A stretch of 32,000 nt of DNA from Methylophaga frappieri (GTDB taxonomy: Bacteria; Pseudomonadota; Gammaproteobacteria; Nitrosococcales; Methylophagaceae). The translations under genes and the position numbers were made by a program. The notes beneath the pieces were generated by a model. The model was not told the DNA's origin and searched no databases. It saw nothing but the letters and a program-made list of their open reading frames with translations. Positions 668 to 20,790 of the stretch are shown here, one piece after another (the first letter of the stretch is position 1; each line of letters begins with the position of its first letter). The DNA is taken from NCBI RefSeq assembly GCF_000260965.1, contig NC_017856.1, positions 120,001-152,000 on the forward strand, read 5' to 3'.

Positions 668-818
668 AAACACCTTCTTAAGATCCAAAAACACCGTTAA
701 TAATAACGCGGCATTGTACCAGTTTTTGTGACTTTCGATTGCGTTAATGACGAGTTAAACCGTATCTCTGGCCGCCTGCTGCCAACATTTTCATGAAAAA
801 TGCCGGCCAAAGAATGTG

Positions 819-1415
819 TTATTGGCGTGCCAGTATGATGGGCTTGATCGTGGCACGATAAAAACGCATGAATAACAGCGTTGCCAGAATAAAGATATAC
901 AGCAATGGCTCACGAATATCGGCCTTCACCAACATCAAAAAATGCAGACAGGCCAGACAGGCAATCACGTAAGTCAGTTTATGTAGTTTTTTCCAGCGCC
1001 GACCAAGCCGTTTTATCATCGCCTTGGTGGAAGTGGCCGCAAGTGGCACTAATAACGTGAAGCTGATAAAGCCAATCGTAATGAAGGGTCGTTCGATGAT
1101 ATCAGCGAGAATTTCCGGCCAGTCAAAAAACTTATCAAGCCATAGGTATAGCAACATGTGCAAACAGGCGTAAAAAAAACAATATAGCCCCATCATACGT
1201 CGGAATTGAATCCACCCAGGCCAATCAGTCAACCAGCGTAATGGGGTCATCGTTAATGTAATCAACAAAAATCGTAACGCCCAGGTACCGGAATCACGCG
1301 TGACTTCTTCGATTGGGTTTGCGCCAAGCTGATCGGTCAATACGGCATAGGTGAGCCAAGCTGCTGGCGCGAATGCCAGCAAAAACACGACTATCTTGAT
1401 ACGGGCAATAGACAT
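819..1415 (-). CDS. msrQ: Protein-methionine-sulfoxide reductase heme-binding membrane subunit MsrQ (YedZ)
   Basis: Multi-TM protein with YedZ-like sequence (MSIARIKIVVFLL...GANPIEEVTRDSGTWALRFLLITL...). It starts 10 nt after the msrP stop. I prefer the ATG at 1415 (verified cat 1413-1415) over the track start at 1454. Confidence 0.85.
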   Translation of the reverse strand: MSIARIKIVVFLLAFAPAAWLTYAVLTDQLGANPIEEVTRDSGTWALRFLLITLTMTPLRWLTDWPGWIQFRRMMGLYCFFYACLHMLLYLWLDKFFDWPEILADIIERPFITIGFISFTLLVPLAATSTKAMIKRLGRRWKKLHKLTYVIACLACLHFLMLVKADIREPLLYIFILATLLFMRFYRATIKPIILARQ

Positions 1416-1425
1416 GTCGAATGAT

Positions 1426-2382
1426 CTAGAAGTATTTGCGCAAATCCATGCCATCGTACAGATCGGCTACTTCCTCACCATAGCCATTGAACATTAGCGT
1501 TTCGCGTTTTAAAAACTCACCAATCCGCCGTTCACGCTTCTGACTCCAGCGGGGATGATCAACGTCAGGGTTTACATTGGAATAAAATCCATATTCGTTG
1601 GGACCTGCAAGCATCCATGTCGTGGTTGGCATCCGCTCGACAAAGCGGATCCGAACAATAGACTTAATGCTTTTAAAACCATATTTCCAAGGTACAACAA
1701 GTCGAATCGGTGCGCCGTTTTGTCCCGGCATCTCATGCCCGTAAAGGCCAATCGCCAACAAGGTCAATGGATGCATGGCTTCATCCATGCGCAGAGCCTC
1801 GATATAAGGCCACTGGAGGACTTCTCGACGTTGTCCCGGCATTTGCTCAGGGTCAAACAAAGTCGTGAATTCAACAAACTTGGCATTGGTATTAGGCTGT
1901 GCTGCTTTTAATACCGCGGCCAGAGGAAAACCCGTCCACGGAATAACCATCGACCAGCCTTCAACACAACGCAAGCGGTAAATTCGCTCTTCCAGATCTT
2001 GTTTGCCGATCAAGTCGTCAACATCATACACACCGGGCTTGTCACACTCGCCATCGATCGTGACCTGCCATGGTTTATTTGGATCTGGGAAGTCCGTGGC
2101 ATAGGTTGCCGGGTCAGACTTGTCCGTACCAAACTCATAAAAATTATTGTAAGTCGTAATATCCTGATAAGTCGTTAACTTTTCATCCGTTGAGAAACGA
2201 CTTTCGGTTGTATTATCAAAGGCCTGTCCAGTGGGTTCCTTTTCTGCCAAAGCAACGGGCAAGGTTAAGGCTGCGGTCATCCCCAATGCACTGTTGATAA
2301 AGCGGCGACGGTTTAAGAAAACCTGATAATCCGTCACTTCAGACTCAGGTAGCTGCCAACGGGCCTTTCGTTTAATTAGCAT
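1426..2382 (-). CDS. msrP: Periplasmic protein-methionine-sulfoxide reductase molybdopterin subunit MsrP (YedY)
   Basis: Twin-arginine signal ([25 protein letters not shown]). Near-colinear match to E. coli YedY motifs: [60 protein letters not shown] at 2382 is preceded by GAGGGGA. The track start at 2451 is an upstream extension. Confidence 0.93.
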
Positions 2383-3004
2383 GAATTCCCCTCTTATCTC
2401 TGAAGTATCGATATAGCCAATCATCAAGGCTGAGATAACGTCCCGCCCCAATAAAAAACAACGCTAATAACATGACAAAATAAGTTGCGGCAAATTCGAT
2501 ACCATTGTTGAGCATCGCTAATCGACCATGCTCTGTCAGCCAACTGTAATTACCGTGCTCCTGCAAAATTGATTTTGCTTTGTCCAAGCGCGCTATCGCA
2601 CCCAAGGCATTTTCAGAAGCAAAAGCACTCATCGGATCATGAATTGCCTGCCAGCCATTTTTCAAATGTACCGAGACCGCAGCGACCACCATGGTGATCA
2701 TCAGCGGTATACTGATCCAGCGTACGGCAAGACCAAGCAACAATAAAATGGCACCAAAATATTCCGCTGCCCAGGCTAGATAGGCCATCAAGGCAGGAAA
2801 AGGCAGCCCCAATCCCCACTCCGCGTTGGCAAACCAATCAATCGTTGGCTGCAAACTGCTACTGCTATCAAAAGGATTCCACTTGTTATTTGCCGCAAAC
2901 CAAAACACCGGCACCAAATAAGCCCTAAGCAACAGTGGGGCTAAAAAATCCACAGCTCGAGTTTTGTCGAGCCCGTCTTGCGCGAGATTGAATAGGCGTA
3001 ACAT
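2372..3004 (-). CDS. DoxX-family integral membrane protein (long form, about 210 aa; possibly the DoxX-type partner of HvfA-class RiPP loci)
   Basis: DoxX-like pattern: [19 protein letters not shown] ... [43 protein letters not shown] at 3004 has AAGGA 7 nt upstream; the track start at 3034 has no SD and abuts a hairpin. Its stop (2374-2372) lies 11 nt inside msrP. Confidence 0.75.
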
Positions 3005-3035
3005 GTGATTTCCTTTAAGCGTGGTCTGGGACATA

Positions 3036-3057
3036 GCAGGGACGTAACCGCCCCTGC
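3036..3057 (-). promoter_or_regulatory. Intercistronic stem-loop between the peptide gene and the DoxX gene
   Basis: GCAGGG (3036-3041) pairs with CCCTGC (3052-3057) around a 10-nt loop. No U-tract follows on the minus strand. Confidence 0.4.
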
Positions 3058-3072
3058 ATGACCATTAACGTC

Positions 3073-3372
3073 TTAACCGTTACCACCACATTTGGCTTCA
3101 CCGCATTTGCCTTCACCATCTTTTTTCATGTCTTCGCCACATTTGGCCTCACCACATTTACCTTCGCCATCTTTCTTCATGTCTTCGCCACACTTAGCTT
3201 CGCCACATTTCGCTTCATCACCATCATGCTCAGCCAAATGCATATAGCCACTGCTCAATTCTGTACTAGCAAAAGGGTTGCTATCCGCATGAATCATTGG
3301 CGAAATGGCCATACCTGCCGTCAGTGTTGCGCCGGCTACCAGAGAAAGTGTCGTTTTTTTGCTTGTCGCCAT
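3073..3372 (-). CDS. Secreted Cys-repeat peptide: HvfA/oxazolin-like candidate RiPP metallophore precursor, or a small periplasmic metal-binding protein
   Basis: ATG at 3372 with AAGGA upstream. Sec signal MATSKKTTLSLVAGATLTAGMAISPMIHA|DS. Then NPFASTELSSGYMHLAEHDGDE, followed by six KCG motifs in CxxxxC pairs (Cys 56, 61, 73, 78, 90, 95) separated by EDMKKDGEG. The mature part is about 70 aa and acidic. Confidence 0.8.
   Translation of the reverse strand: MATSKKTTLSLVAGATLTAGMAISPMIHADSNPFASTELSSGYMHLAEHDGDEAKCGEAKCGEDMKKDGEGKCGEAKCGEDMKKDGEGKCGEAKCGGNG
3088..3225 (-). repeat. 51-bp tandem coding repeat (2 full units plus 1 partial) inside the peptide gene
   Basis: Units 3088-3138 and 3139-3189 are identical at 46 of 51 nt. 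Both encode GEDMKKDGEGKCGEAKC, so all 5 differences are synonymous. The third, partial unit (3190-3225) encodes DGDEAKCGEAKC. Confidence 0.9.
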
Positions 3373-3430
3373 GGGAGTGTTCCTTTAGTTAATAAAAAAT
3401 AAACTGGTTATATCGACCAGCTTGTTTTAC

Positions 3431-3457
3431 TAGACTCCCCATAAAGGCATTTGTTAC
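3431..3457 (-). promoter_or_regulatory. Candidate ECF-type promoter for the peptide-doxX-msrPQ operon
   Basis: The minus strand reads GTAACA-N16-GTCTA (AAC in the -35, GTC in the -10), about 60 nt upstream of the ATG at 3372. Motif match by eye only. Confidence 0.25.
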
Positions 3458-3577
3458 ATCTTTTTTCGACACAAATATCGTTGTACTAAATTGCCGCTAA
3501 CGAAATGAGGTGAAATAAGATACTTTCGGTATGATGGAAGTCAGGTTTCCTAATATTTAAGGTACGATGCCTCGATA

Positions 3578-4189
3578 ATGCATTCAGCAGACTCGCAGCC
3601 CTATGATAATGAGGCAGAGCTCATCAAAGCTTTGCTCAGTAATGAAGCAACGGCATTCGAGTATTTAGTTGCCCGTTACCATATGCAGATGCGGACCGTT
3701 GCCAGCGCTATTATTGGTGAGGCCTTTGCCGATGACGTGGTACAGGATGCTTGGATTTCTGCTATTACGAATTTGCCAACATTTGCCGGGCGAAGTCGTT
3801 TATCCACCTGGTTAATGCAAATTGTTGCCAATGGCGCCAAAACGCGTTTGCGAAAGGAAAAGCGGCAAGTCTCTCTGGATAAAGACTGGCAGGCCATCGA
3901 TGAGGAGTTTGATCATCGGCAACACTGGCGACAGGATGTTTTGCCTTGGGATATTGATACGCCTGAAGCGCTCGCCACTAATCAGCAATTAGTCGCCATT
4001 ATAGAAAAAGCCTTTATTGCCCTGCCGGCGATGCAACGCGCTGTTATCGAGATGCATGATCTCCATCAAATGCCAATGCCAGAAATTTGTAACATTCTTG
4101 ACGTGAGCGCATCTAATGCGAGAGTGCTTTTACATCGTGCCCGCCATTTTGTGCGGCAGAAAATTACCCAGTTTCAGGAACAAGCATAA
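3578..4189 (+). CDS. ECF-family RNA polymerase sigma-70 factor
   Basis: Region 2 (DDVVQDAWISAITNLPTFAGRSRLSTWLMQIVANGAKTRLRKEKR) and region 4 HTH (LPAMQRAVIEMHDLHQMPMPEICNILDVSASNARVLLHRARHFVRQKI). 203 aa. Confidence 0.9.
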   Translation: MHSADSQPYDNEAELIKALLSNEATAFEYLVARYHMQMRTVASAIIGEAFADDVVQDAWISAITNLPTFAGRSRLSTWLMQIVANGAKTRLRKEKRQVSLDKDWQAIDEEFDHRQHWRQDVLPWDIDTPEALATNQQLVAIIEKAFIALPAMQRAVIEMHDLHQMPMPEICNILDVSASNARVLLHRARHFVRQKITQFQEQA

Positions 4190-4432
4190 ATGTTTCGTTG
4201 TAAAGATATTGCGCATCACGCCAGTGATTATCTTGACCAGCAGCTGACTTGGCGGCAACGGCTGGCTTTTAAACTGCATTTATTTATTTGCCGTAATTGT
4301 CGTCAATATGTGCATCAGATTGGTCAAACTGTGGCGGGGATTCGATTGATGGCGGTCAAACAGCAAAACACACTCACGACAGATCAGAAAAAAATGGCCG
4401 AAAACCTACAAAAAATTCGCCGTAAAAACTGA
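4190..4432 (+). CDS. Small soluble zinc-binding (zf-HC2 / ZAS-type) anti-sigma factor
   Basis: The ATG immediately follows the sigma factor's TAA (TAAATG). Motif is C4-x25-H30-x3-C34-x2-C37 (HLFICRNC). 80 aa, with no hydrophobic segment. Confidence 0.8.
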   Translation: MFRCKDIAHHASDYLDQQLTWRQRLAFKLHLFICRNCRQYVHQIGQTVAGIRLMAVKQQNTLTTDQKKMAENLQKIRRKN

Positions 4433-4678
4433 TTATTTCTGATACTGAGATTTCCATTCGCTATAAGGCATGCCATAAATGATGGTCCGCGCCGCATCGT
4501 AACCCATCTCCTTGCCACGTTCTTCTGCTGCGGCAAGATACCATTTCGACAAACAGTTTCGACAAAATCCAGCCAGATTCATCAAATCGATATTCTGTAC
4601 ATCTGTTCGCGTTTGCAGGTGAGCAATTAATTGACGAAACGCCGCCGCTTCGATTTCGATTTGGGTTTGTTTATCCAT
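4433..4678 (-). CDS. DUF1244-family protein
   Basis: [46 protein letters not shown] matches my memory of DUF1244. ATG at 4678 overlaps the upstream ATPase stop by 8 nt. The track start at 4741 is an extension. Confidence 0.75.
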   Translation of the reverse strand: MDKQTQIEIEAAAFRQLIAHLQTRTDVQNIDLMNLAGFCRNCLSKWYLAAAEERGKEMGYDAARTIIYGMPYSEWKSQYQK

Positions 4679-6686
4679 GATAGTCCTGTGATTGATATAA
4701 AAAACAACGAACAACCTGCCCTGTTTCAGGTTCGGTTTCACTTGGATAATGCAGTTTACAGACTGGCATCACATCTGGACAACGGGAATGAAAGTGACAT
4801 CCGGATGGCGGATTTGCCGGTGAGGGCAGCTCCCCTGTTAAAGTCACAGTGGGAGATACCGATTGCATATCCGGTACCGCCGCCAACAAAGCACGCGTAT
4901 AAGGATGTTTTGGGTGCTTCAATACCTGTTGGCGGCTTCCTGTTTCGACGACACGGCCTAAATACATGACCGCAATGCGGTGCGCCAAATAATCCACGAC
5001 ACCAATATCATGCGTAATAAACAGATAACTCAGCCCTTCCTCATTTTGTAGATCCCGGAGCAGGTTCAATATCTGCGCCTGAACTGAAACATCCAGGGCG
5101 CTGGTTGGTTCGTCACAAATCAGCAATGCTGGCTCTGCCGCCAAAGCTCTGGCAATGCACAGTCGCTGGCGTTGGCCACCAGAAAAAGCATGCGGATAAC
5201 GATGTAAAATATCCGTATTCAGCCCCACTTTCCTTAACAGATCCTCAATGACTGTCTGTTGCGCTACGCTTGAGAGTTTATCTTGCCGCGCTTGCAGACC
5301 TTCCAACAGGATTTGTTGCACCGTCATTCTCGGATTCATTGATGCAAACGGATCCTGAAAAATAATCTGCATTGGCAGCCTGTCACCTTGCGCCGCTTTT
5401 ACTAATGCTTTGTTGCCCGATTTTGCAGCAAACTGTATTTCACCACCAATGATTAGTTGTAGCTGTTGTACCGCCTTAGCCAAGGTACTCTTACCGCAAC
5501 CAGATTCGCCAACGATGGCTAAGGTCTCACGTTCATTCAAGCGCAGACTTACCCCATCAACCGCCTTAACCCAGCCTTTAGTACGCTGCAAGATACCTTT
5601 GCGAATTGGAAAATGTACTTGTACCTGATCCAGTCTTAACATAACACGTGTGGCAGGCTCAGTTTCATCGGGCACGCCAGATGACTGCGGTTGAGAAGAA
5701 ACTGCCATAGGCCATGTTCTATCTGGATCAAACTGATGGCAACGCACGCCATCATGTCGCTCACCAAACCAGTTAGGTAACTGTTCCTCACAGACCGGCT
5801 GACGCTGTTGACAACGGGCCGTAAAACGACAGCCGGTAAAGACCTGATTCAATGGCGGTACCGTGCCCGGAATGACGGCAAGAGGCGCGTCTCGCTGTTG
5901 TGTAGATGGCATGGCAGCAAAGAGTCTTTCACTGTATGGATGCCGGGGCTGCTTAAAAAAAGTCCGGCGGTCGGCTGTTTCCACAATCTGGCCGGCATAC
6001 ATCACGGCTATTCGGTCTGCCATTTGTGCAACGACACCTAAATCATGACTGATCAACAGAATCGCCATACCGGTTTCTTGTTGCAATTTTTTTAATAACC
6101 CTAAAATCTGTGCCTGAATAGTCACGTCAAGCGCTGTAGTCGGTTCATCGGCAATCAATAAATCTGGCTTGCCTGCCAGTGCCATAGCAATCATCACACG
6201 TTGTTTCATGCCCCCGGAAAGCTGATGTGGATAAGCAAAGAAACGCTTTTCAGGATCCGGTATACCAACCTGCACGAACAGTTCAATACATCGTGCTTTG
6301 AGTTGCGCAGCTGATAAATCAAAATGCCAGCGCAGCACTTCAAGCAATTGTTGACCTATCGTTAACACTGGGTTCAACGCGCTTTGTGGATCCTGAAAAA
6401 TCATAGCGATTTTCCGCCCCCTGACCCGCTCCATGTCAGCCTCTGAGCAACGTAACAAATCCCGATCATTAAGCCGAATTTGACCACTGACAATCTGACT
6501 TGCGGGTTGTGGGTTTAATTGCAGTAACGACAGCGCCGTCATTGATTTGCCACAGCCTGACTCACCCAGTAAGGCGAATGTTTCTCCGCGATCGATATAG
6601 AAATCAACGCCATCGACAACGCGATAGGCCTGCTCTGCCTTGCCAAACCAGGTTTTTAAATGTGCCACTTCAAGTAAATGGCTCAT
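4671..6686 (-). CDS. ABC transporter ATP-binding protein, two fused ATPase domains (oligopeptide/dipeptide/YejF type)
   Basis: Two Walker A motifs (GESGCGKS twice), two signature motifs ([16 protein letters not shown]) and two Walker B motifs ([24 protein letters not shown]). An Opp-type Cys-containing C-terminal extension follows each domain. Confidence 0.93.
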
Positions 6687-8092
6687 GTGATTACCTGATG
6701 ACGCGGGTCAAAAGCATCACGGACGCTGTCAGCAAACAAATTTGCCGCTAGGACCAATAAAAACATAAAAATAAAAGCCGCAACCAATGACCACCAAACG
6801 ATAGGATCGCGCGCCATTTCCAGTCGTGCACTATTAATCATATTGCCCCAACTGATCATCGTGGGGTCGACGCCAACGCCCACATATGACAAAACGGCCT
6901 CAGCCAGTACCAAACCACTAAAATCAAGAACCACCGTGATCAAAACGATATGCATCAGATTGGGTAAAATATGCCGGTGCAAGATAGTTGGCCCTGGTAC
7001 GCCGAGCGCCTTGGCGGCTTGAACATACTCTGCTTCACGTAATTTCAGTGTTTCACTGCGTAGAATACGACACAGGCCAGTCCAACTAGTGACCCCCAGA
7101 ATCAAACATAAAAATAAAAGCCGGATATCCGCACGTTCGGCGGCCGTGGTAAACAATTGTGGATGATTATTGATATAGACTTGTAACATCAGGACCGCTG
7201 CCGCAATTAAAAGCACGCCAGGAATCGCATTTAAAGTGGTGTAAATATATTGAATCAGATCATCAATCCAGCCTCGAAAATAACCGGCAGCAATACCCAT
7301 CGTCACCGCCATGGGCAACATGATGAGCGTGGTCAGACTACCGATTAACAAACCGGTACGAATGCTTTTCAATGTTTGATAAAGCACATCCTGCCCCACT
7401 TTATCCGTGCCTAAGACATGATAAAACTGGCCGAGATAAAGCAAATTACTGGCAAACAATAGAATGAGGAAAAGCGTTAGCCACGCCGTCGTAACAGGAT
7501 AGCCGGCCTCATCAGACCAGTATCGTTTCAAGACATCACGCAATGAGCTTGCTCGGTGCCAGCAAAGCCAACTTAACCAGAGCGCTATCATCGTCAGCGT
7601 CGCCCCTAGCGCAAATAAACTGGCTTTCGCAGATTTATTCGCAATATCCTGTAACTTATCCGCCGGATTGGTCAAATGTTGACCACCATATTTCAAGTCC
7701 GGGTAGCCATAATGCAGACTGCCCTCATTTTGAATCATTTCCTTGGTAAACTGCTGATGCGCAAAAGGAGCCGAATAGGTTTTTTCAACCTGACTGCGTA
7801 GCGGGGTCAAAATGAGATCCAGAACACTTAACACGTCACTGTGAAAATGATGACTTGCCTCTTCTTCAGTGGGCTGCAACGCCAGTCTGAAGTGCAGGGA
7901 ATCGGCGACGCCAATGCCGATAAAAACCAGCAGTATGAGACTGGAAATCATACCGCGGCTTGTCGAAAAAACCTGTTTCCAGGGCCGACACAAATGCGGT
8001 TTACGGCGAATATAGATGACCATCAGAACCGTAGCTGCCAGCAACGTGAAAAGTAAAATATCTGTCCACAAAAAAACCGGCAAAAAGGCCAT
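6683..8092 (-). CDS. ABC transporter permease, OppC/DppC/YejE type, with an N-terminal extension of about 195 aa
   Basis: Core motifs LGTDKVGQDVLYQTLKSIRTGLLIG and EAA loop EYVQAAKALGVPGPTILHRHILPN. Its stop overlaps the ATPase start (ATGA). The N-terminal roughly 195 aa add extra TM segments and a loop of about 90 aa. Confidence 0.88.
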   Translation of the reverse strand: MAFLPVFLWTDILLFTLLAATVLMVIYIRRKPHLCRPWKQVFSTSRGMISSLILLVFIGIGVADSLHFRLALQPTEEEASHHFHSDVLSVLDLILTPLRSQVEKTYSAPFAHQQFTKEMIQNEGSLHYGYPDLKYGGQHLTNPADKLQDIANKSAKASLFALGATLTMIALWLSWLCWHRASSLRDVLKRYWSDEAGYPVTTAWLTLFLILLFASNLLYLGQFYHVLGTDKVGQDVLYQTLKSIRTGLLIGSLTTLIMLPMAVTMGIAAGYFRGWIDDLIQYIYTTLNAIPGVLLIAAAVLMLQVYINNHPQLFTTAAERADIRLLFLCLILGVTSWTGLCRILRSETLKLREAEYVQAAKALGVPGPTILHRHILPNLMHIVLITVVLDFSGLVLAEAVLSYVGVGVDPTMISWGNMINSARLEMARDPIVWWSLVAAFIFMFLLVLAANLFADSVRDAFDPRHQVIT

Positions 8093-20620: not shown

Positions 20621-20692
20621 TCAGCGAACAAGGGATGAGTACCTACGGCGGCTACCTGCAGACGTAACTGTATCGCAGACCGAAAATACCGG

Positions 20693-20790
20693 CTTGTTTC
20701 CTACGGAGGTCTTAACCTCTTCAGGTTCAACGGGTTTCATCTCAGCCACATTTGAAAATGCAAACGGGCACCCCGACAAGTTTTTTTATG
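20693..20790 (-). promoter_or_regulatory. TPP (THI-box) riboswitch aptamer upstream of thiC
   Basis: Minus-strand RNA is CUUGUCGGGGUGCCC...GGCUGAGAUGAAACCCGUUGAACCUGAAGAGGUUAAGACCUCCGUAGGAAACAAG. It carries the universal GGGGUGC, CUGAGA, ACCUGA and CGUAGGAA elements. P1 is closed by CUUGU/ACAAG. Confidence 0.92.

What the first reader, a model, noticed from the sequence alone, without database searches (positions are those of the whole stretch)
819..4432. ECF sigma / zinc anti-sigma pair divergent from a KCG-repeat peptide - DoxX - MsrP - MsrQ operon: candidate new envelope copper/oxidant module
Sequence shows four co-directional genes with almost no spacing. Peptide 3372-3073 is followed by a 68-nt spacer carrying a hairpin, then DoxX 3004-2372, which overlaps msrP by 11 nt, and msrQ begins 10 nt after msrP ends. 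About 200 bp upstream lies a divergent, translationally coupled ECF sigma / zf-HC2 anti-sigma pair. Established knowledge, from memory: EGKCG-type peptides and bufferins are copper-binding RiPPs normally encoded with an MNIO (DUF692) enzyme, a DUF2063 partner and often a DoxX protein, and some such loci are under ECF control. MsrPQ repairs periplasmic Met-sulfoxide and in E. coli is induced by a copper/HOCl-responsive two-component system. Inference: here the maturase pair is replaced by MsrPQ. The mature peptide is rich in Cys, Met and His, which are both metal ligands and oxidant targets. The locus may therefore encode a sacrificial or metal-buffering periplasmic peptide with its own repair/redox machinery. 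I do not know of this combination being described.
Basis: partly seen in the sequence, partly recalled or inferred. Interest (0 to 1): 0.85.

Follow-up and report, generated by a model that had tools for sequence, protein, structure and literature searches.

The report
Copper-peptide, DoxX and MsrPQ stress operon
A marine methylotroph (Methylophaga frappieri) carries one stress-sigma-controlled operon combining a cysteine-repeat copper-binding peptide, its DoxX membrane partner and the periplasmic methionine-repair enzymes MsrPQ, but without the two enzymes that normally modify such peptides; this is a compact, family-wide variant of a system already known from Neisseria and Haemophilus.

Summary
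The window is Methylophaga frappieri. All four minus-strand genes pass curated cut-offs: an HvfA-family KCG-repeat peptide, an HvfX-family DoxX, MsrP and MsrQ. An ECF sigma and a small cytoplasmic zinc (ZAS) anti-sigma lie divergently upstream.

New evidence:
- An ECF-type promoter (GTAACA-N16-GTCTA) sits 58 nt upstream of the peptide. It occurs once in 32 kb and is invariant in 17 related loci.
- The arrangement is syntenic in 19 Methylophagaceae species.
- No MNIO or HvfC gene lies in the window or within 10 kb in any of those species.

"MsrPQ replaces the maturases" is not supported. MsrP also follows hvfX in two distant lineages that keep the maturases, so the gain of msrPQ and the loss of hvfBC are separate events.

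The combination is not undescribed. A 2025 survey notes EGKCG clusters with molybdopterin-oxidoreductase or ferric-reductase genes. Neisseria SigE/MseR and Haemophilus RpoE2/HrsE already co-regulate the doxX/hvf operon with msrAB.

Whether the genome holds maturases elsewhere remains unresolved, though two homologue searches found no Methylophaga copy.

Verdict: a new variant of a known kind, of moderate interest.

The parts
3578..4189 (+). ECF sigma factor, 203 aa, divergent from the peptide operon
   Evidence: Pfam Sigma70_r2 and Sigma70_r4_2, and NCBIfam TIGR02937 sigma70-ECF at 83 bits against a cut-off of 42.9. The nearest solved structures are generic ECF sigmas. Homologues lie next to hvf clusters in L084 and L068.
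4190..4432 (+). Small cytoplasmic zinc-binding (ZAS) anti-sigma factor, 80 aa; its ATG abuts the sigma stop codon
   Evidence: Pfam zf-HC2 at 36.5 bits, and NF052368 anti-sigma family at 59.7 bits against 50. By inspection the sequence carries C4-x26-H31-x3-C35-x2-C38, which matches the ZAS motif C/H-x23-26-H-x3-C-x2-C quoted in PMC7907618. There is no hydrophobic segment.
3431..3457 (-). ECF-type promoter GTAACAAATGCCTTTATGGGGAGTCTA (-35 TGTAACAAA, -10 GTCTA), 58 nt upstream of the peptide ATG
   Evidence: It is the only match in the 32-kb window, against 0.03 expected. The same motif, with an invariant 17-nt gap, lies upstream of the peptide in all 17 class A loci that have upstream DNA. In 2.74 Mb of held loci the strict motif occurs only in class A loci. 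It resembles the neisserial sigma-E consensus GTMAGBWTT-N12/13-CGTCTAAH.
3401..3423 (-). 5'-UTR stem-loop immediately downstream of the -10 element, followed by a U-run
   Evidence: Flagged as terminator-like. dG is -12 kcal/mol with z = -2.5. Every class A locus folds a hairpin at the same position using a different stem sequence. An alignment-based covariation test failed on register. Its function is unknown.
3073..3372 (-). HvfA-family (Buf_EGKCG/oxazolin type) precursor peptide, 99 aa. It has a Sec signal peptide (aa 1-29, 3286-3372), a conserved NPFxxxELSSGYM region, and six KCG motifs arranged as 17-aa repeats.
   Evidence: NF050137 scores 68 bits against 19.5. The HvfA equivalog NF050188 scores only 49.6 against 95. 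A 51-nt tandem repeat runs for 2.6 copies at 3086-3217. It was aligned with 40 relatives.
3032..3060 (-). GC-rich hairpin in the 68-nt peptide-doxX spacer (attenuator or mRNA-stabiliser candidate)
   Evidence: dG is -29.5 kcal/mol, z = -3.5, and 0 of 200 shuffles fold as well. A hairpin at this position occurs in all class A loci and is followed by a T-run in most relatives.
2372..3004 (-). HvfX-family DoxX integral membrane protein, 210 aa
   Evidence: Pfam DoxX, and NF050144 HvfX family at 220.6 bits against 80. It is 100% identical to M. frappieri Q7C_122.
1426..2382 (-). MsrP, the periplasmic molybdopterin methionine-sulfoxide reductase. It has a twin-arginine signal (NRRRFI) and its start overlaps the doxX stop by 11 nt.
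   Evidence: NF003767 equivalog at 478 bits against 207, and Pfam Oxidored_molyb.
819..1415 (-). MsrQ, the haem-binding membrane subunit, starting 10 nt after msrP ends
   Evidence: NF003831 at 209 bits against 130, and Pfam Ferric_reduct.
781..807 (-). Hairpin just after the msrQ stop, marking the probable operon end before aceE
   Evidence: dG is -20.7 kcal/mol with z = -2.35. aceE begins at about 686 and runs off the left end of the window.

Best explanation
This is a self-contained envelope oxidant/copper stress module of the Neisseria SigE/MseR and Haemophilus RpoE2/HrsE type.

Proposed mechanism:
1. A redox-sensitive cytoplasmic zinc anti-sigma holds the ECF sigma inactive.
2. On oxidative, chlorine or copper stress the sigma is released.
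3. The sigma fires one conserved promoter (3431-3457).
4. The transcript first encodes a Sec-exported cysteine-repeat peptide of the HvfA copper-metallophore family.
5. By read-through of a hairpin, it then encodes the HvfX DoxX membrane protein and the tightly coupled MsrP-MsrQ pair. MsrPQ repairs oxidised methionines in periplasmic proteins, plausibly including copper-handling proteins and the peptide itself.

MsrPQ is a co-regulated repair module. It corresponds to msrAB in the Neisseria and Haemophilus regulons and does not substitute for the maturases.

The maturase genes hvfB (MNIO) and hvfC have been lost from this locus in the whole Methylophagaceae clade. They are probably, but not certainly, absent from the genome. 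If so, the peptide would act through plain cysteine thiolates.

Shown here: gene identities, couplings, the promoter motif and its conservation, synteny, and the local absence of maturases. Inferred: the inducing signal, sigma dependence, read-through, copper binding, and genome-wide absence of maturases.
For: - Family assignments all exceed curated cut-offs.
- The ZAS motif is present and the anti-sigma has no membrane segment (sequence against the motif quoted).
- The promoter GTAACA-N16-GTCTA is unique in the window, invariant in 17 class A loci, and confined to class A loci in 2.74 Mb of held DNA.
- Related TGTAACGTC...CGTCTAGTG motifs lie upstream of the peptide in L078 and L084. L084 also carries an adjacent sigma/anti-sigma pair.
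- The promoter resembles the neisserial SigE consensus and has the same spacer.
- 19 of 80 GTDB species loci share the layout sigma/anti-sigma, then divergently peptide-DoxX-MsrP-MsrQ, with flanking DUF1244 and aceE.
- msrP follows hvfX independently in L031 and L073, which keep MNIO and HvfC. Both sit far from class A in the DoxX tree.
- There is no MNIO or HvfC in any ORF or six-frame segment of the window, nor within 10 kb in any class A locus.
- The sister lineage keeps peptide-MNIO-HvfC near an orthologous DoxX.
- Searches with the sister-lineage MNIO and HvfC returned no Methylophaga-named hit, and no hit on a class A contig, among the best 120 each.
- Literature: RpoE2/HrsE and SigE/MseR control both msrAB and the doxX operon, which is HOCl-inducible. 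E. coli MsrPQ is copper-induced and repairs CusF.
Against: - There are no expression data. Sigma dependence rests on a motif alone.
- No matching motif was found upstream of the sigma gene itself in this window, so autoregulation is not evident.
- The hairpin between the peptide and doxX looks like a true intrinsic terminator in many relatives. doxX-msrPQ could therefore be poorly expressed or separately expressed.
- Genome-wide absence of MNIO/HvfC could not be tested. Only the best 120 homologues are visible per search.
- The peptide's N-terminal NPF...SGYM region is suspected to be the HvfC recognition site. It is as conserved in class A as in maturase-linked loci, which argues for a maturase acting in trans.
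- Only 67 of 2583 complete genomes with such precursors lack an MNIO.
Confidence: 0.7

Rival explanations
1. Split biosynthetic cluster. The peptide is still a true RiPP. An MNIO/HvfC pair encoded elsewhere in the Methylophaga genome converts its cysteines to oxazolone/thioamide (or thiooxazole) groups before Sec export. This locus is simply hvfA-hvfX with msrPQ added.
For: - The NPFxxxELSSGYM region and the strict KCG repeats are as conserved in class A as in maturase-linked peptides.
- That N-terminal region is proposed to be the HvfC recognition site.
- About 97% of complete genomes with EGKCG precursors hold an MNIO somewhere.
- In the sister lineage the maturase genes are already separated from doxX by 2-7 kb.
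Against: - There is no MNIO or HvfC within 10 kb in any of 19 class A species, nor in the 32-kb window.
- The best-120 lists for the sister-lineage MNIO and HvfC contain no Methylophaga-named protein, and none on a class A contig. The DoxX search, by contrast, returned several named Methylophaga isolates.
Confidence: 0.35
2. MsrPQ has functionally taken the place of the maturases. The peptide is a sacrificial Cys/Met oxidant sink, and MsrP (with DoxX) recycles it.
For: - The peptide, DoxX and MsrPQ lie under one promoter with tight coupling.
- The mature peptide has 3 Met and 6 Cys.
- MsrP repairs a Met-rich copper chaperone in E. coli.
Against: - msrP co-occurs with intact maturase genes in L031 and L073, so its gain does not depend on their loss.
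- Met in the repeat unit is common in canonical peptides.
- MsrP reduces methionine sulfoxide, not oxidised cysteine.
- MsrPQ is a general periplasmic repair system in the literature.
Confidence: 0.12
3. Coincidental neighbourhood. msrPQ is an independent housekeeping operon that merely sits next to a decaying hvf remnant.
For: A strong hairpin, terminator-like in relatives, separates the peptide from the downstream genes.
Against: - The doxX stop and msrP start overlap by 11 nt, and no promoter-like site lies between them.
- The peptide and DoxX are intact and conserved in 19 species, down to 57% DoxX identity.
- The hvfX-msrP junction recurs in unrelated lineages.
Confidence: 0.04

Closest known systems
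Haemophilus influenzae hvfX-hvfA-hvfB-hvfC (NTHI1440-1444, oxazolin) together with the RpoE2/HrsE regulon (PMC11252979, PMC7907618)
   Same: - A Sec-exported peptide with AEGKCGEGKCG-type repeats.
- An HvfX DoxX partner.
- An ECF sigma held by a small cytoplasmic ZAS anti-sigma.
- The same sigma also drives a periplasmic methionine-sulfoxide reductase.
- The regulon is HOCl-responsive.
   Different: - Here there is no MNIO (HvfB) or HvfC at the locus.
- The reductase is MsrPQ, not MsrAB.
- The reductase lies in the same operon as the peptide and DoxX, not at a separate locus.
- The sigma pair is divergent and adjacent.
Neisseria meningitidis/gonorrhoeae sigma-E operon NMB2140-2145 plus msrAB (PMC2893595, PMC3240639)
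   Same: - The DoxX-family gene, the sigma-E gene and the ZAS anti-sigma MseR form one locus.
- msrAB is the other regulon member.
- The promoter has -35 GTMAGBWTT and -10 CGTCTAAH with a 12-13 nt spacer. This compares with GTAACAAAT-N12-AGTCTAGT here.
   Different: - In Neisseria the sigma and anti-sigma lie inside the same autoregulated operon.
- Neisseria keeps the DUF692 and DUF2063 genes.
- The reductase is MsrAB, at a distant locus.
Buf_EGKCG/oxazolin clusters with extra Oxidored_molyb or ferric-reductase genes, noted in one sentence in PMC12452194
   Same: This is the same gene combination: an EGKCG peptide and DoxX with PF00174 and ferric-reductase-type genes.
   Different: The survey gives no taxa, regulation, operon anatomy or relation to maturase loss. 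It describes these as additional genes in small numbers of clusters.
Escherichia coli msrPQ (yedYZ) under HprSR and CusSR (PMC9302797)
   Same: MsrPQ is induced by chlorine species and by copper. It keeps a periplasmic copper-handling protein (CusF) functional.
   Different: E. coli uses two-component regulation, not an ECF sigma with a ZAS anti-sigma. It has no linked peptide or DoxX.
Caulobacter bufferin buf1ABCD with SigF/NrsF (PMC11626156)
   Same: A Sec-exported Cys peptide metallophore, with DoxX, under an ECF sigma, that protects against copper.
   Different: - It belongs to a different precursor family (DUF2282).
- Its anti-sigma, NrsF, is membrane-bound.
- MNIO and DUF2063 are present and required.
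- It has no Msr genes.
- DoxX is dispensable there.

Membership tests
HvfA/oxazolin (Buf_EGKCG) RiPP system | A precursor with a Sec signal peptide and repeated (E)GKCG motifs in 17-residue repeats | tested here: met
   NF050137 scores 68 bits against 19.5. A 51-nt repeat runs for 2.6 copies. The signal peptide and NPF...SGYM region align with 40 relatives.
HvfA/oxazolin (Buf_EGKCG) RiPP system | The precursor reaches the HvfA equivalog model cut-off | tested here: not met
   NF050188 scores 49.6 bits against a cut-off of 95. It is a family member, not an equivalog of H. influenzae HvfA.
HvfA/oxazolin (Buf_EGKCG) RiPP system | An MNIO maturase (HvfB, PF05114) encoded with the precursor | tested here: not met
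   No hit in any ORF of 110 aa or more, nor in six-frame segments against an HMM built from 43 locus MNIOs at E up to 10. None lies within 10 kb in the class A loci. The rest of the genome could not be searched.
HvfA/oxazolin (Buf_EGKCG) RiPP system | A partner protein HvfC (DUF2063; PF09836/PF22106) encoded with the precursor | tested here: not met
   The same searches gave no hit. A search with the sister-lineage HvfC found no Methylophaga copy among the best 120.
HvfA/oxazolin (Buf_EGKCG) RiPP system | An HvfX-type DoxX membrane protein in the cluster | tested here: met
   NF050144 scores 220.6 bits against 80.
HvfA/oxazolin (Buf_EGKCG) RiPP system | Cysteines converted to oxazolone/thioamide or thiooxazole, and Cu(I) binding | not testable with these tools
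   This needs mass spectrometry, UV-visible spectra and metal titration of the native peptide.
SigE/MseR - RpoE2/HrsE type ECF regulon | An ECF sigma paired and co-transcribed with a small cytoplasmic anti-sigma that carries the ZAS motif C/H-x23-26-H-x3-C-x2-C | tested here: met
   Sigma70_r2/r4_2 and zf-HC2, and NF052368. The motif C4-x26-H31-x3-C35-x2-C38 was read and matches the motif quoted. The genes meet at a TAAATG junction.
SigE/MseR - RpoE2/HrsE type ECF regulon | Target promoters of the type GTMAGBWTT-N12/13-CGTCTAAH | tested here: inconclusive
   The window has GTAACAAAT-N12-AGTCTAGT: 6 of 9 and 6 of 8 positions match, with the same spacer. It is conserved and specific, but sigma binding is untested.
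SigE/MseR - RpoE2/HrsE type ECF regulon | The regulon comprises a methionine-sulfoxide reductase and the doxX/hvf operon | tested here: met
   Both lie downstream of the single ECF-type promoter. Here the reductase is MsrPQ instead of MsrAB.
SigE/MseR - RpoE2/HrsE type ECF regulon | Induction by HOCl or H2O2 and dependence on the sigma factor | not testable with these tools
   This needs expression measurements in the wild type and in sigma or anti-sigma mutants.
MsrPQ periplasmic methionine-sulfoxide reductase | A molybdopterin catalytic subunit with a Tat signal, plus an adjacent haem-b membrane subunit | tested here: met
   NF003767 scores 478 against 207 and NF003831 scores 209 against 130. 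The NRRRFI twin-arginine motif is seen in the translation. The gap between the two genes is 10 nt.
Bufferin Buf1/Buf2 (DUF2282 or 6/12-Cys) with SigF/NrsF | A DUF2282 or Buf_6/12Cys precursor and an NrsF membrane anti-sigma | tested here: not met
   The peptide has no Pfam hit. The anti-sigma is a soluble zf-HC2 protein, not NrsF.

The most novel reading that the evidence does not exclude
Methylophagaceae may have lost the MNIO/HvfC maturases altogether while keeping, under strong selection, the EGKCG peptide and its HvfX DoxX partner, and may have fused them with MsrPQ. If so, a RiPP precursor family works here as an unmodified cysteine-thiolate copper/oxidant buffer. HvfX currently has no known function and is dispensable in Caulobacter. 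It would then be the peptide's real functional partner, for example a quinone-linked redox keeper, working alongside MsrPQ. This would be a natural knock-out that makes the role of HvfX directly testable.
Probability: 0.35. Interest if true: 0.7.

Novelty: new variant of a known kind. Interest (0 to 1): 0.45.

Why it matters
The function of the DoxX partner (HvfX/BufD) in copper-metallophore clusters is unknown. Whether EGKCG peptides need MNIO modification to work is also untested. Methylophagaceae offer a culturable, clade-wide case in which the peptide and DoxX persist without adjacent maturases and are wired to MsrPQ and a redox-type sigma switch.

This links three lines of work in a single 3.6-kb locus:
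- RiPP metallophores;
- periplasmic methionine repair under copper or chlorine stress;
- regulation by ZAS anti-sigma and ECF sigma pairs.

The locus also comes with an easily assayed promoter. If maturases turn up elsewhere in the genome, it is simply a split cluster with an extra repair module.

Tried and rejected
- Exact-sequence look-ups of the window's DoxX, its longer start variant, the peptide and P0001 found nothing on record. The source genome's other regions therefore could not be read.
- The single genome-contig scan went on the DoxX survey. No direct MNIO scan of the M. frappieri genome was then possible.
- The supplement tables of PMC12452194 held here do not include Table S4 and do not mention Methylophaga.
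- The literature searches 'MsrP + DoxX' (0 papers) and 'Methylophaga + DUF692' (3 irrelevant papers) gave nothing.
- RNAalifold on the 5'-UTR hairpin predicted no consensus structure, because the stems are out of register in the alignment. The hairpin claim rests on single-sequence folds.
- The anti-sigma has no PDB sequence relative.
- Rfam has no family for the 5'-UTR or the spacer hairpin.
- A sigma-70-type promoter scan found fewer sites than in shuffled sequence.
- I rejected the idea that a second ECF motif drives the sigma gene. The only other near-match lies inside the sigma coding region.
- I rejected a bufferin Buf1/Buf2 assignment, because there is no DUF2282.

Full report
**1. Observation**

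On the minus strand:
- The peptide is at 3073-3372 (99 aa).
- A 68-nt spacer follows.
- DoxX is at 2372-3004.
- msrP is at 1426-2382 and overlaps DoxX by 11 nt.
- msrQ is at 819-1415, after a 10-nt gap.

On the plus strand, 205 bp from the peptide start, lies an ECF sigma (3578-4189). Its stop codon abuts the ATG of an 80-aa zf-HC2 protein (4190-4432).

Curated models confirm every identity:
- MsrP: NF003767, 478 bits against a cut-off of 207.
- MsrQ: NF003831, 209 against 130.
- DoxX: HvfX family NF050144, 220.6 against 80.
- Peptide: HvfA-family domain NF050137, 68 against 19.5.
- Sigma: Sigma70_r2 and Sigma70_r4_2.
- Anti-sigma: zf-HC2 and NF052368.

The peptide stays below the H. influenzae HvfA equivalog cut-off (49.6 against 95).

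The spacer hairpin is real, with dG -29.5 kcal/mol and z = -3.5. The peptide gene contains a 51-nt tandem repeat of 2.6 copies. This corresponds to the 17-residue repeat with two KCG motifs described for type-1 Buf_EGKCG/oxazolin precursors.

**2. Source and surroundings**

The DoxX is 100% identical to Q7C_122 of Methylophaga frappieri. To the left of msrQ, aceE runs off the window. To the right lie a DUF1244 gene, a Yej-like ABC ATPase and permease, ispH, pheA, serC, gyrA and other housekeeping genes.

No ORF in the 32 kb is an MNIO (PF05114) or a DUF2063/HvfC protein. No six-frame segment matches HMMs that I built from 43 MNIO-bearing and 45 HvfC-bearing related loci, even at E = 10. Those HMMs pick out exactly the genes that carry precomputed PF05114 and PF09836/PF22106 labels in independent loci.

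**3. Regulation**

The pattern GTAACA-N16-GTCTA lies 58 nt upstream of the peptide ATG, at 3431-3457 on the minus strand. It is the only match in the window, against 0.03 expected by chance.

All 17 related loci that hold upstream DNA carry the same -35 TGTAACAA and -10 GTCTA, with an invariant 17-nt gap at the same distance. In 2.74 Mb of fetched DNA (both strands) the strict motif occurs only in loci of this type. L078 and L084, labelled Aquipseudomonas and Pseudomonas, carry TGTAACGTC...CGTCTAGTG at the same distance from the peptide. L084 also has an adjacent sigma/anti-sigma pair.

The motif resembles the neisserial sigma-E consensus, -35 GTMAGBWTT and -10 CGTCTAAH with a 12-13 nt spacer (PMC2893595).

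The anti-sigma has no hydrophobic segment. It carries C4-x26-H31-x3-C35-x2-C38. This is the ZAS motif described for the small cytoplasmic anti-sigmas MseR, HrsE and RsrA (PMC7907618).

Sigma control of the peptide operon is therefore well supported at the sequence level, although it is untested experimentally. I found no equivalent motif upstream of the sigma gene. A near-match lies inside its 3' coding region (see section 8).

**4. Conservation**

A DoxX-anchored scan of one genome per GTDB species returned 80 loci at 56-83% identity. I classified them with phmmer and HMMs.

- 19 loci show the window's layout: sigma/anti-sigma divergent from peptide-DoxX-MsrP-MsrQ. I call these class A. Two of the 19 are truncated by a contig end. 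Wherever flanks exist, DUF1244 and aceE flank the locus.
- These are Methylophaga or Methylophagaceae genomes, or unnamed gammaproteobacterial MAGs with the same synteny. Metagenome contigs show the same arrangement.
- None of the 19 has an MNIO or HvfC within 10 kb.
- About 45 loci hold MNIO and HvfC. About 40 have them within 5 kb of DoxX, mostly in the canonical order peptide-MNIO-HvfC-DoxX.
- 16 loci are DoxX genes with no linked partner in the DNA held.

Two distant loci keep MNIO-HvfC-DoxX and add msrP directly after DoxX: L031 (Thiohalomonadaceae) and L073. In a neighbour-joining DoxX tree without support values, these two sit far from the Methylophaga group. L068 has peptide-DoxX-sigma-anti-sigma without MNIO and without msrPQ.

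The gain of msrP after hvfX and the loss of hvfBC are therefore separable events. 'Replacement' is the wrong description.

A sister lineage, with DoxX 70-76% identical, keeps lysS-peptide-MNIO-HvfC a few kb upstream of an orthologous DoxX near argG and lpd. The Methylophaga state is therefore best read as derived.

**5. Are maturases elsewhere in the genome?**

This could not be settled.

Evidence for absence:
- A search with the L016 MNIO, and another with the L088 HvfC, each returned 120 best hits. None carried a Methylophaga name, and none had a longest contig matching any class A contig.
- The DoxX search, by contrast, returned several named Methylophaga isolates.
- The published census counts 67 complete genomes that have an EGKCG precursor but no MNIO.

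Evidence for presence:
- Those 67 genomes are only 2.6% of 2583.
- The NPFxxxELSSGYM region is thought to help HvfC recognition. It is as conserved in class A peptides as in maturase-linked peptides.

I put genome-wide absence at roughly 55-65%.

**6. Mechanism**

The closest experimentally studied systems are as follows.
- N. meningitidis SigE/MseR. The operon NMB2140-2145 contains a DoxX-family gene, three hypothetical-protein genes, sigma-E and the ZAS anti-sigma. msrAB is the other regulon member.
- H. influenzae RpoE2/HrsE. HOCl induces both msrAB and the doxX operon in a strictly RpoE2-dependent way. That doxX operon is now known as hvfXABC, which makes the copper-binding oxazolin.
- E. 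coli. MsrPQ is induced by chlorine species and, through CusSR, by copper. It restores the Met ligands of the copper chaperone CusF.
- Caulobacter. DoxX (BufD1) is not needed for peptide modification or for copper protection. Its role remains open.

The Methylophaga locus packs the same logic into one unit: a redox-type anti-sigma switch, one promoter, a Sec-exported Cys-repeat copper-binding peptide, HvfX and MsrPQ.

A GC hairpin after the peptide gene occurs in every class A locus. It is followed by a T-run in most relatives, but not in M. frappieri. From general knowledge of precursor-peptide operons, this probably sets a high ratio of peptide to downstream gene products by partial termination or transcript stabilisation. 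This step is inferred.

**7. Novelty**

PMC12452194 states that small numbers of EGKCG clusters carry extra Oxidored_molyb (PF00174) or ferric-reductase genes. The co-regulation of Msr with the doxX/hvf operon by an ECF sigma and a ZAS anti-sigma has been known since 2006-2021.

What is new here:
- the anatomy;
- the conserved promoter;
- the clade-wide synteny;
- the absence of local maturases across a whole family;
- the independent recurrence of the hvfX-msrP junction.

I rate this a new variant of a known kind, with moderate interest (0.45). The most novel reading still open is an unmodified peptide working with HvfX and MsrPQ. I give it about 0.35 probability. It would be clearly more interesting, because it would make the unknown function of HvfX testable.

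**8. Side observations**

- The strict promoter motif recurs inside the 3' end of the sigma gene in 14 class A loci, about 85 nt before the anti-sigma ATG. It falls on the codons for C-N-I-L-D-I-S-A-S-N.
- In the window this site is 4089-4115 and reads ATCTA instead of GTCTA. TGT is used in 19 of 19 sequences, AAC in 18 of 19 and TCT in 16 of 19.
- It could be an internal sigma-dependent promoter giving anti-sigma feedback, or simply conserved coding sequence. I did not resolve this.
- A 5'-UTR hairpin directly after the -10 element is present in every class A locus, each time with a different stem sequence.
- Some relatives carry two tandem peptide genes (L005, L027).
- A TPP riboswitch precedes thiC.

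Noticed in passing
window 4089-4115 (+), inside the sigma ORF; same position in L002, L018, L019, L020, L023, L027, L030, L033, L042, L057, L075: A second copy of the ECF promoter motif, GTAACA-N16-(G/A)TCTA, lies in the 3' end of the sigma coding region. It is about 85 nt before the anti-sigma ATG, on the codons for C-N-I-L-D-I-S-A-S-N. Synonymous codons are unusually fixed: TGT in 19 of 19, AAC in 18 of 19, TCT in 16 of 19. It may be an internal sigma-dependent promoter that gives anti-sigma-only feedback, or it may be a coding coincidence. The window's copy reads ATCTA.
   Followed up: partly
window 3401-3423 (-): A stem-loop with a U-run sits at the very 5' end of the predicted peptide transcript. 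Every class A locus has a hairpin at the same place, each with a different stem sequence (CTGGT/ACCAG, ACCGGT/ACCGGT, GAGTCA/TGAC and others). It has no Rfam match. The alignment-based covariation test failed on register.
   Followed up: partly
L005 9304-9543 and 9626-9931; L027 9065-9439 and 9478-9885; L016 1-204 and 397-786: Some relatives carry two tandem KCG-repeat peptide genes. Repeat number varies widely, from 4 to 14 KCG motifs, among class A species.
   Followed up: no
L068 2202-4100: Another maturase-less layout in an unrelated gammaproteobacterial MAG: peptide-DoxX-sigma-anti-sigma on one strand. No MNIO or HvfC lies within 2.5 kb upstream or 10 kb downstream. The peptide's SGYM motif has degenerated to SSPL.
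   Followed up: no
window 4433-4741 (-): A DUF1244 gene, with a conserved CRNC motif, ends back-to-back with the anti-sigma gene. It keeps this position in every class A locus that has flanking DNA. Whether this is functional or just synteny is unknown.
   Followed up: no
window 4671-8092 (-): A Yej-like ABC importer remnant: a fused double ATPase with oligo_HPY domains and one permease. No substrate-binding protein or second permease lies nearby, and ispH follows directly.
   Followed up: no
window 20681-20785 (-): A TPP riboswitch (RF00059, 67.9 bits) lies upstream of thiC, at the head of a thiC-thiO-thiG-thiDE cluster. This is ordinary.
   Followed up: yes
L088 1911-7843; L093 1406-10642: In the sister lineage, unrelated genes separate hvfA-hvfB-hvfC from the orthologous DoxX. 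These include a TPP enzyme, a Glu_synthase-like protein, and RimB/transglutaminase/ATP-grasp genes. The hvf cluster was therefore already breaking up before Methylophagaceae lost hvfBC.
   Followed up: partly
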